DNA of 64,000 bases, from assembly GCA_951406725.2 (NCBI GenBank), contig OX597820.1, forward strand, positions 868,001-932,000, written 5' to 3'. The translations under genes and the position numbers were made by a program. The DNA comes from Octopus vulgaris. Lineage: Eukaryota. Positions 25,725 through 28,044 of the stretch are shown here, piece after piece. Each line of letters starts with the position of its first letter. Positions within the stretch are counted from its first letter, which is position 1. Under the pieces are notes generated by a model that did not search any database, was not told where the DNA came from, and saw only the letters and a list, made by a program, of their open reading frames with translations.

Positions 25725-26887
25725 GGACATAACAACAGGCGTCTTTCGACTGTGGACGAATTGAATTATATATAAAAACCAAAAATGCAAGTTCTGAAAT
25801 CTCTCGAAGAGATCACCATAGTAGTTGTAGTAACAAGTAATGTTCGTTGCCACTCTAACAAACCGGCGTTGGTTTGTTTGTGTCCTTGTGACTTGGCAGC
25901 TTGGCAACAGATCCGATAGAAAAAATACCGGTTTCGAAGTGATCGACTAAATCCCTTCACGGCGGCGCCCCCGGCACGCCCGCGCCGCAATAACTGAAAC
26001 AATTAAAACAAAAGATCTAAAATCAATATGGCCGAGAACTATAAGCCCCAAACCTACCTTAACTCTACACAAACTGACTGAACCAATTCCTCCAAGATCT
26101 TTGCAAATCTAATGACGTGGCCATTGGAAAGCGTTATGTGGAAAGTAAAGAAGTGTGAGGACGCGCTGAATAACTTTTATTTAATAAAGTTCTACTGTCT
26201 GAAATAAGACAACTCCGTAGAACTTTGTGACTGTTTGCTTTGATTACACGAAGTCACTTATGGAGGTCAGAAGTATCTGATGTTTTAAAGGCTGCCATAA
26301 GGCGGCGAGTTGGCAGAATCGTTAGCACGCCGGGCAAAACTCTTGGCGGCATTTCGTACGTCGTCTATACATTCAAATTCTACCGAGGTTGACTTTGCTT
26401 TCCGTCCGTTCAAGGACCATAAAATAAATACCAGTTGAGCACTGGGATCGATGTAATCGATAATCTCCCGTCTTCGGAACCGCTGGCCTTGTGCGAAAAT
26501 TTGATAGCAATATTGATATGAAGTGTAGACTCTCTTGAACTTGTGACCGTTGGGTCACGTCACATCTCGAAGATCAGGCTTTTTACTTCAAGAGCAAAAG
26601 GCGTCTATAAAATTTTCAATGGACAAATAAAAATCCCAAGATACGAACATAAAAATCAATGTTTGAAAATTACTATTTGTAAATCTCACAACAGAACTTT
26701 GGGGTAAAGATTTTTGCCAACATAAAATGGCAGTCCTGGTTTAGGATGAATGTTGCTGTAATTTAACCCCAGGAGACATCGTCTCCAGCTGGCTTTACGA
26801 CACGATCTGTGTCATAATTTCGAACAAGGGAATTTAGCACCCCCACTCAGCTCAAAACAATATCTGTGTATCTAACCGAACAATTAT

Positions 26888-26932
26888 TATATGCTGATGA
26901 AGAGAAATAACCCAGAAATCGCAATATACAGA
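26888..26932 (+). ncRNA. Minimal type-I hammerhead-like motif
   Basis: uauaug-CUGAUGA-A-GAG(aaauaa)CCC-A-GAAA-UCGCAA-UA-UACAGA; stem I is partly mutated relative to the twin copy. Confidence 0.55.
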
Positions 26933-27484
26933 TGTGGTTTTGAGCTGAATGGGGGTGCTAGATTCTCTCTGTTTTTAAAAATATAAGGACACAGATTATG
27001 TCGTATAGCCAACTGGAGACAATGTCTCCTGGGGCTAAATTACAGCAACATTCATCCTAAGCCAGGACTGCCATGTTATGTTGGCATATAATCTTAACTA
27101 CATTAGACTTGTTATGTTTGTACTTGTTGGAAGTTTTAATTAGAATGTTCCTATATATTCAATACCTGAGGTGTTTATATTTACCCAGGGACAGACAGGC
27201 TTTTCTGCGAATGGCATTGTATGTTGTAGCAACATCATGTCCCAATGGGAAGTAATATATCGATGGTAATATATGCTACTAACGTCCTCCAGAGAAGATT
27301 CACATAATTGATGTTTATGAAGTAAAGATTGTTTGCCAACATGACATGGCAGTCCTCGTTTAGGATGAATGTTGCTGTAATTTAGCCCCACGAGACATTG
27401 TCTCCAGCTGGCTATATGACACAATCTGTGTCTTTATATTTTCGAACAAGAAAATCTAGCACCCCCACTCAGCTCAAAACCACA

Positions 27485-27529
27485 TCTGTATATTGCGATT
27501 TCTGGGTTATTTCTCTTCATCAGCACAGA
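27485..27529 (-). ncRNA. Minimal type-I hammerhead-like motif
   Basis: UCUGUG-CUGAUGA-A-GAG(aaauaa)CCC-A-GAAA-U(CGCA)A-UA-UACAGA; 6-bp stem I, AUA cleavage triplet, weak stem II. Confidence 0.62.
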
Positions 27530-28044
27530 ATAATTGTTCGGTTAGATACACAGATATTGTTTTGAGCTGAGTGGGGGTGCTAGATTCCCTTGTTCGAAAT
27601 TATTGTTGAAATTAAGCCCCAGGAGACATCGTCTCCTGGGGCTAAATTACAGCAACTTTCGTCCTAAACCATGACTTCCATGTTATGTTGACAAATAACC
27701 TTTACTCCAAAGTACTGCTGCTGAATATCTCTCGTTGTGAGATTTACAAATAGTAATTTTTAAAGTCTGATATAGTTATTTGGGACAGAAACGAAAACAA
27801 AGTATAACTATAGGGGTCAGCTGCGCTGTAGATGTGAACATTTATTCCAAAATATTTTTAGGACAACGGCTTCGAAACCTGCACCCCCTCTAACCTGGTG
27901 GTTTTCAACCATTTTCCTACGTATGGAACCCCTTTAAATCTTATTCTACTCAACTGGATCCTCATAGCCAACTGATGTTTAAAATTCAATTATATTTTTA
28001 TAATTAAGTATAATTAAGTATCATTAGAAATTGTATTTTAAAAA

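What the first reader, a model, noticed from the sequence alone, without database searches (positions are those of the whole stretch)
26668..27760. 1.1-kb palindrome of palindromes with a hammerhead in each hairpin loop
Seen: a ~155-bp unit occurs four times as > < > <. Each pair encloses the same ~78-bp spacer, in opposite orientations, and the whole is closed by a 25-bp outer inverted repeat around a ~220-bp unique centre. Each spacer holds a hammerhead-like motif (UCUGUG-CUGAUGA-A-stem II-A-GAAA-UCGCAA-UA-UACAGA). A transcript from either strand would therefore carry one sense ribozyme at the tip of a ~150-bp dsRNA stem. Inference: this arose by two successive fold-back or template-switch events during Penelope-type reverse transcription, or it is a composite element mobilised as a unit. 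It is also a potential ADAR/Dicer substrate if transcribed.
Basis: partly seen in the sequence, partly recalled or inferred. Interest (0 to 1): 0.8.

Follow-up and report, generated by a model that had tools for sequence, protein, structure and literature searches.

The report
Two Penelope stubs flank flipped DNA
This 1.1-kb nested palindrome is real, but it is likely two separate insertions of an abundant Penelope-like jumping-gene stub, each already a head-to-head hairpin, that likely recombined and flipped the 200 bases of host DNA between them; their hammerhead ribozyme motifs are damaged and predicted not to fold.

Summary
The nested palindrome is real, but it is probably not one element. 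Each half is a head-to-head pair of a very abundant repeat with a hammerhead motif in a 52-nt loop and a 53-59-nt extension on the outer arm only, the known 'inverted pLTR plus tail' form of Penelope-like elements (PLEs); no link to a PLE protein was found. The '25-bp outer IR' is part of that extension. No direct target duplication frames the whole or either half. Instead two 13- and 16-bp duplications are exchanged: left flank with centre end (12/13), right flank with centre start (14/16), each reached by 4 of 5000 control pairs. That is the signature of two insertions whose interval was later inverted. A 155-bp tract round the loops is homogenised (5/155 differences against 27/247), as expected from conversion. 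Only the right copy fits a hammerhead descriptor, its stem II is broken, and the fold-back is predicted to sequester the cut site. The short arm ends 0-3 nt from the cut site, but 3-nt microhomology explains that as well. The scan noted PLE breakpoints at hammerheads before in other genomes. Transcription is untested.

The parts
26648..26660 (+). Target-site duplication T1, outer copy (13 bp)
   Evidence: 12 of 13 identical to the reverse complement of 27307-27319; score reached by 4 of 5000 local control pairs
26666..26871 (-). Arm A1: inverted short copy with the 3' extension (tail, about 26666-26701, lacking 17 nt); inner end at the hammerhead cut site plus 3 nt of possible microhomology
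   Evidence: table 5c for the missing 17 nt
26872..26923 (+). 52-nt loop of the left hairpin with hammerhead core (CUGAUGA at 26894, GAAA at 26915); stem I 5' strand changed at two places, stem II broken
26924..27094 (+). Arm A2: direct copy without tail; predicted cut site between 26926 and 26927
26814..26968 (.). Homogenised tract, partner of 27449-27603 (inferred conversion or crossover tract)
   Evidence: 5 of 155 differences against 27 of 247 outside, Fisher p 0.0045, permutation 295 of 20000; 5 of 6 listed sites share a non-majority base against 3 of 15 outside
27095..27110 (+). Target-site duplication T2, inner copy, in inverted orientation (16 bp)
   Evidence: 14 of 16 identical to the reverse complement of 27763-27778; 4 of 5000 control pairs
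27111..27306 (.). 196-bp host segment, inferred to be inverted relative to the flanks
   Evidence: exchanged duplications; no other match in window; low summed depth in 4 runs
27307..27319 (-). Target-site duplication T1, inner copy, inverted
27320..27493 (-). Arm A3: direct copy without tail; predicted cut site between 27491 and 27490; 3' end about 6 nt further out than A2's
27494..27545 (-). 52-nt loop of the right hairpin with the better hammerhead (core 27523-27517, 6-pair stem I, near-palindromic stem III, broken stem II)
   Evidence: descriptor hit; hammerhead-shaped fold +3.5 kcal/mol against -12.3 for the control hammerhead at 28135
27546..27760 (+). Arm A4: inverted short copy with full tail (about 27708-27760); a local 53-nt hairpin at 27603-27655 replaces part of the arm
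27763..27778 (+). Target-site duplication T2, outer copy

Best explanation
This is likely two separate insertions of one abundant non-coding Penelope-like repeat, about 210 bases apart and facing opposite ways, whose intervening host DNA was likely flipped later by recombination between them. Step 1 (inferred): a PLE protein supplied in trans made a staggered cut 13-16 nt wide and both 3' ends primed reverse transcription on the element's RNA, one at the end of the tail and one 53-59 nt inside; the two cDNAs joined head to head, the long one reaching about 22 nt upstream of the hammerhead core and the short one stopping at or 3 nt past the cut site. Step 2 (inferred): the same happened at a second site. 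Step 3 (shown pattern, inferred cause): a crossover near the loops inverted the centre, exchanged the two target duplications and left a 155-bp homogenised tract. The hammerheads are now passengers: damaged (shown) and predicted to be locked in the fold-back.
For: Exchanged duplications 12/13 and 14/16 next to the four element ends, each reached by 4 of 5000 local control pairs, while the two un-exchanged pairings (4313 and 1542 of 5000) and a direct duplication round the whole (score 3) are at background. Duplication copies differ at 3 of 29 places, like the arms (9-15% pairwise, star-like outside the tract). Inner ends differ by about 6 nt, outer arms alone have the tail. Tract: 5/155 against 27/247; shared non-majority bases 5 of 6 against 3 of 15. 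Arms are a high-depth repeat, centre is not. Another head-to-head junction of the family at 27472/27542 in 3 of 4 runs (table 5). Inverted 5'-truncated pLTR, tail on one end, 8-10-bp TSD are described for PLEs (PMC3846280; PMC8557442); a PLE protein cuts and extends both strands and starts at two sites that bound the tail (PMC11167929); exchanged TSDs mark inversion by recombination between opposed copies (PMC2775673; PMC2603318).
Against: The duplications were seen by eye first and the boundaries set afterwards; the first, unanchored test of 12 pairings gave shuffle p 0.0014 for T1 but only 0.061 for a clipped T2, and one unrelated pairing reached 0.043. T1 is separated from the shared arm end by 5 nt and T2 by 2 nt. 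No empty or un-flipped allele was seen. No site groups A1 with A3 and A2 with A4, as different source copies might give (0 of 8 two-by-two sites). Both halves have the same junction, which the model must ascribe to conversion or to a preferred breakpoint. No tie to a PLE protein was found. The tail (53-59 nt) and duplications (13-16 bp) are longer than those in the papers read (30-40 nt; 8-10 bp). A neighbouring hammerhead-bearing palindrome at 28044-28599 shows no duplication.
Confidence: 0.68

Rival explanations
1. One concerted integration: the PLE machinery cut twice about 210 bp apart, all four ends primed cDNA, and the cDNAs were joined crosswise, so the host fragment was flipped during insertion rather than later.
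For: Same exchanged duplications; four arms and both duplications of similar age; no other copy of the family in 64 kb, so two neighbours are unlikely to be independent; same junction in both halves; protein predicted as a dimer that acts on both strands (PMC11167929).
Against: The homogenised tract with shared non-majority bases shows exchange between the halves well after insertion, which is by itself enough to flip the centre; no precedent in the searches run.
Confidence: 0.13
2. One reading: one hairpin unit was duplicated by a second fold-back or template switch, or the 1.1-kb composite moves as a unit.
For: Halves are 84% alike end to end with the same junction and loop; 7 of 8 two-by-two sites group A1 with A4 and A2 with A3; both outer ends are tail ends, as twin priming on an antisense read-through RNA would give.
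Against: All 7 of those sites lie in or at the edge of the 155-bp tract; outside it A1/A4 differ at 11 of 75 and A2/A3 at 10 of 107, no closer than other pairs; no duplication round the whole, and exchanged duplications are not predicted; centre depth is low.
Confidence: 0.07
3. Two insertions as in the best explanation, but the flip of the centre is an assembly or polishing error at the near-identical tract.
For: Identical runs of 54 and 57 nt between halves; no contig shown bridges an inner junction or spans a half.
Against: The window has no N in 64 kb despite 141 tandem-repeat rows, which suggests long reads (inference); the halves still differ at 5 places in the tract.
Confidence: 0.06
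4. An ordinary fold-back or MITE-type DNA transposon whose long inverted repeats enclose a chance hammerhead-like loop.
For: Each half is a long hairpin; Rfam finds no hammerhead; stem II is broken; no PLE protein link.
Against: The two ends of each half are unequal by 53-59 nt and ragged, duplications are 13-16 bp, the descriptor is not met by chance, the read-majority base at the cut site restores a Watson-Crick pair in stem I (site 26927), and other contigs leave the alignment at 27540-27546 instead of folding back (4 pieces table 8).
Confidence: 0.06

Closest known systems
Endonuclease-bearing Penelope-like elements with an inverted 5'-truncated pLTR, e.g. Pen2a_Av of Adineta vaga (PMC3846280; scheme in PMC8557442 Fig. 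2)
   Same: Direct pLTR-like copy with a shorter inverted copy joined head to head, a tail on one end only, a target duplication, a hammerhead in the repeat.
   Different: No ORF between repeats: each insertion is only the inverted pair. Tail 53-59 nt and duplications 13-16 bp, longer than the 30-40 nt and 8-10 bp described. No autonomous partner identified.
Minimal hammerheads of metazoan PLEs (PMC4209133)
   Same: Type I layout, extra nucleotide after A9, G at 10.1, short near-palindromic stem III (6 of 8 self-pairs); that paper also reports pairs 100-700 bp apart on opposite strands.
   Different: Stem II is 3 bp with one mismatch and an extra A before GAAA, against the 6-8 bp described; 6-bp stem I against 4-5.
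Inversions by recombination between opposed mobile elements: Galileo inversion 2z3 (PMC2775673) and Alu/L1-mediated inversions (PMC2603318)
   Same: Two opposed copies of one family with exchanged target duplications round an inverted segment.
   Different: The elements are PLE-type hairpins, the inverted segment is 196 bp, and the ancestral state was not seen.
Non-LTR retrozymes (bioRxiv 10.64898/2026.07.22.740005)
   Same: Non-coding, type I hammerhead, PLE-related.
   Different: Retrozymes are head-to-tail tandem repeats; here no tandem array is found and the hammerheads face away on opposite strands.

Membership tests
Penelope-like element (EN+), non-autonomous stub | Hammerhead motif inside the terminal repeat | tested here: met
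   Descriptor hit in the right copy, 0 hits with 6-pair stem I in 6.3 million null bases; left copy fails; Rfam silent
Penelope-like element (EN+), non-autonomous stub | Inverted 5'-truncated copy joined head to head to the direct copy | tested here: met
Penelope-like element (EN+), non-autonomous stub | 3' tail present at one end only | tested here: met
   53-59 nt on A1 and A4 only; longer than the 30-40 nt in PMC8557442
Penelope-like element (EN+), non-autonomous stub | Target-site duplication | tested here: met
   13 and 16 bp, in exchanged arrangement
Penelope-like element (EN+), non-autonomous stub | Match to the pLTR or ORF start of an element coding PLE reverse transcriptase and GIY-YIG nuclease | tested here: inconclusive
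   A frame starts at the AUG in the hammerhead core and runs 65-67 codons with one internal stop, as in PAc where the ORF starts at stem II, but searches found no real homologue; no genome is held
Active hammerhead ribozyme | Paired stem II with G10.1-C11.1 next to the core | tested here: not met
   2 of 3 pairs, extra A before GAAA; hammerhead-shaped fold +3.5 kcal/mol
Active hammerhead ribozyme | Stem I free to form in the transcript | tested here: not met
   Predicted pair probability 0.000 in both units, the whole element and five growing transcripts
Active hammerhead ribozyme | Self-cleavage | not testable with these tools
   needs an in vitro assay
TE-mediated inversion by ectopic recombination | Two opposed copies with exchanged target duplications | tested here: met
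TE-mediated inversion by ectopic recombination | Un-inverted ancestral state, chimeric copies | tested here: inconclusive
   No such allele among the 15 joints shown of 809; arms are star-like so chimerism cannot be read
Non-LTR retrozyme | Head-to-tail tandem units each with a hammerhead | tested here: not met
   No tandem array at 26668-27760; copies are inverted
MITE / fold-back DNA transposon | Equal terminal inverted repeats with a short direct duplication | tested here: not met
   Ends unequal by 53-59 nt; no direct duplication round either half or the whole

The most novel reading that the evidence does not exclude
A Penelope-like element cut twice 210 bp apart, primed four cDNAs and flipped the host fragment in one integration, with each short cDNA running off an RNA cut by its own hammerhead: a fossil showing both that PLE integration makes micro-inversions directly and that ribozyme-cut RNA is used as template in vivo.
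Probability: 0.1. Interest if true: 0.65.

Novelty: new member of a known kind. Interest (0 to 1): 0.3.

Why it matters
As read here it is a tidy example of two known processes stacked: head-to-head PLE insertion and inversion between opposed repeat copies. It matters mainly as a handle. The tail on one arm only and the 13-16-bp duplications fit priming from both target strands, which would explain the inverted PLE structures that PMC8557442 calls still undefined; and a family this abundant lets one count, genome-wide, whether short arms end at the hammerhead cut site, a point left open by PMC11167929 (cleavage not needed in vitro). One locus cannot settle either.

Tried and rejected
No whole genome is held, so copies could not be counted or aligned. 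Exact-pattern scans for the arm found 0 loci in metagenome, viral and prokaryote collections, and a degenerate hammerhead pattern 0 in metagenomes. Rfam: 0 at gathering score in the window, 26 weak matches in 26400-28000, mostly miRNA-precursor models that fit any long hairpin, none a hammerhead. No RNA holder listed with a useful share of words; the four runs laid were contigs of DNA or unknown kind, so expression, small RNAs and editing were not tested. Frame from the hammerhead AUG: no candidates, no Pfam family, and the 3 HMMER hits are tandem-repeat sequences whose scores come from 4-11 weak stretches each; rejected. An extended stem I in the read-majority state (6+7 pairs, -11.7 against -7.6 kcal/mol) is not significant: 803 of 3000 shuffles reach it. 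The monomer sense RNA folds no better than shuffles (z -0.20). Cut-site footprint: not separable from 3-nt microhomology; 7-9 such trinucleotides lie in loop plus arm, and the neighbouring family's three copies all run well past their cut sites. No tRNA gene in the window. The bacterial promoter scan is at chance and not apt for this host. Earlier scan notes by sequence and by place: none. A 2017 paper on dimeric PLE hammerhead variants is not held.

Full report
Observation. The region holds four copies of one arm, A1 (26666-26871), A2 (26924-27094), A3 (27320-27493) and A4 (27546-27760), in the order > < > <. A1/A2 and A3/A4 each close a 52-nt loop, and the two halves match each other in inverted orientation at 84% over 460 columns. 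No other copy of the arm, and no other copy of the centre, lies in the 64-kb window. A contig in run X1 carries those 17 nt (table 5c), so the extension is family sequence.

Independent data. No genome is held. Twenty of 24 listed runs hold part of the stretch, one of them half of the words, none on record as RNA. Laying contigs of four runs at 80% likeness gave summed depth of about 5,500 to 496,000 over the bins that lie within arms and loops and 12-95 over the two bins wholly inside the centre, close to the depth of the contigs that cross unique flank (8-59). The tool warns that this is no copy number; I take from it only that the arm is a very abundant repeat and the centre is not. The left outer junction is bridged by 31 or more letters on each side in X1 and X2, the right in X2 and X6 (X3 is borderline on the right, short on the left). 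No inner junction is bridged among the 32 pieces shown of about 279,300, so the centre's orientation rests on the assembly. One of the 15 joints shown of 809 is another head-to-head junction of this family (27472 to 27542, opposite strands; 3 of 4 runs), and four pieces leave the alignment at 27540-27546 instead of folding back. The host is an animal with a microsatellite-rich genome; the repeat at 26300-26510 reminds me of octopus SINEs, which is recalled and was not tested. PLEs are an annotated and partly recent part of the Octopus vulgaris genome (PMC13282606, passages).

The hammerhead. A type I descriptor hits three places in the window: the right loop (core at 27523, minus strand, 6-pair stem I) and two copies of another family at 28135 and 16108; in 6.3 million null bases it hit 3, 1 and 0 times at 4, 5 and 6 pairs. 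The left loop has two changes in the 5' strand of stem I and fails. The layout follows the PLE minimal hammerhead of PMC4209133 (parts 1-2 of 4 read): an extra base after A9, G at 10.1, a short near-palindromic stem III (6 of 8 self-pairs). But stem II has only 2 of 3 pairs and an extra A before GAAA; the hammerhead-shaped fold scores +3.5 kcal/mol against -12.3 for the control at 28135. Rfam finds none. The read-majority base at the cut site turns the first pair of stem I from G-U into G-C, so the family may be sounder than these copies; the stem II positions are not among the 40 of 185 rows shown. The inverted arm reaches over the cut site, and in each unit, in the whole element on both strands and in five growing transcripts the predicted stem I pair probability is 0.000. 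The ribozyme is therefore predicted to be locked, not presented at the tip of the stem.

First level: each half is a PLE-type head-to-head insertion. PMC8557442 (passages) describes an inverted 5'-truncated copy next to the upstream pLTR and a 30-40-bp tail often at one end only; PMC3846280 (passages and Discussion) shows Pen2a_Av with that form and a 9-bp TSD, and calls head-to-head the most frequent arrangement. PMC11167929 (parts 1-2 of 4; three supplementary text files searched without a hit, figures not held) shows a PLE protein cutting and extending both target strands and starting at two sites that bound the tail. My inference is that both ends of a staggered cut primed cDNA, one from the tail end and one from inside. 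A simple fold-back of one cDNA cannot give this, because the short arm has family sequence that the long arm lacks. A frame opens at the AUG in the hammerhead core and runs 65-67 codons with one internal stop, as in PAc, but no homologue was found, so the tie to an autonomous PLE is not shown.

Second level: exchanged target duplications. The 13 nt at 26648-26660 match the reverse complement of 27307-27319 at 12 places, and 27095-27110 match the reverse complement of 27763-27778 at 14 of 16. In a junction-anchored test each score was reached by 4 of 5000 local control pairs; the un-exchanged pairings were reached by 4313 and 1542 of 5000, and a direct duplication round the whole scored at the latter level. 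I saw the matches by eye first. An earlier unanchored test of 12 pairings gave shuffle p 0.0014 for T1, 0.061 for a clipped T2 and 0.043 for one unrelated pairing; an anchored test with the clipped window gave 5 and 28 of 6000. Exchanged duplications round opposed copies are the accepted sign of inversion by ectopic recombination (PMC2775673, passages, which also notes that an aberrant single event is not excluded by them; PMC2603318, passages). So the original insertions were A1...A3 in target T1 and A2...A4 in target T2. In line with this A2 and A3 end about 6 nt apart, and outside the central tract the arms are star-like: 10/102, 10/102, 11/75, 10/107, 9/75 and 11/75 differences for the six pairs, about the same as the 3 of 29 differences between duplication copies.

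The tract. Between 26814-26968 and 27449-27603 the halves differ at 5 of 155 places against 27 of 247 outside (A4's rearranged stretch left out; Fisher p 0.0045; 295 of 20000 permutations give so clean a window). Of the 26 listed variant rows inside the element, 25 have a partner and collapse to 21 sites: 5 of 6 in the tract carry the same non-majority base in both halves against 3 of 15 outside (p 0.014; one of the 3 is in the rearranged stretch). This explains why 7 of 8 two-by-two sites group A1 with A4 and A2 with A3, the pattern that makes the whole look like a duplicate. It shows exchange between the halves at roughly a third of the insertions' age (inference from the differences), and such exchange can flip the centre. 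Whether both junctions were alike from the start cannot be told.

The cut-site coincidence. The short arm ends exactly at the predicted cut site or 3 nt past it, the 3 nt being assignable to either side (in two runs the contigs with a variant at 27542 end 6 letters on). After conversion this is one event, not two. With 7-9 such trinucleotides in loop plus arm, joining by microhomology explains it about as well as run-off from a cleaved RNA. The other family's copies in the window run past their cut sites.

Rivals and novelty. Searches of the held library turned up no listing that describes a PLE pair with exchanged duplications or hammerheads in octopus, but most subscription papers and bioRxiv supplements are not searched, and I read only the papers named. 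The retrozyme preprint (part 1 of 5) concerns tandem arrays, absent here. Verdict: a real, well-explained stack of two known processes; interest 0.3.

Noticed in passing
window 28044-28599: Second head-to-head palindrome from a different hammerhead-bearing family: intact motif on the minus strand at 28135, a copy with a changed core near 28494, (ATT)n/(AAT)n arrays and a 71-nt spacer in the middle; no target duplication found.
   Followed up: partly
window 16021-16149 and 27886-28040: A third copy of that family (hammerhead at 16108) lies beside the same repeat family (matching 17867-18268) as the 28044 palindrome does, hinting at a shared target.
   Followed up: no
window 27603-27655: A local 53-nt hairpin replaces part of arm A4, apparently a template switch at a small hairpin already in the arm.
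   Followed up: partly
window 26642-26652 and 27112-27122: An 11-nt match (10 of 11, inverted) lies next to both inferred target sites in the pre-inversion orientation; shuffle p 0.043 among 12 pairings, so it may be chance.
   Followed up: no
window 6055-6385, 17867-18268, 46219-46540, 47382-47513: Four more self-inverted repeat structures; hairpin-forming repeats are common in this window.
   Followed up: no
window 8527-9654 (-), 3032-3751 (-), 4767-5324 (+): Reverse-transcriptase frames (PF00078, E 1e-21 and 0.002) and a transposase fragment (PF01359, E 7e-18); 3 of 14 frames scanned had a family. Their clade was not determined.
   Followed up: no
window 20445-20475 and 20954-20984: Two related minus-strand CUGAUGA...GAAA motifs 509 nt apart in direct orientation that fail the full descriptor; possibly decayed hammerheads of a third family.
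   Followed up: no
window 26300-26510: Very abundant SINE-like repeat with a dozen or more partial copies in the window; resemblance to octopus SINEs is recalled only.
   Followed up: no
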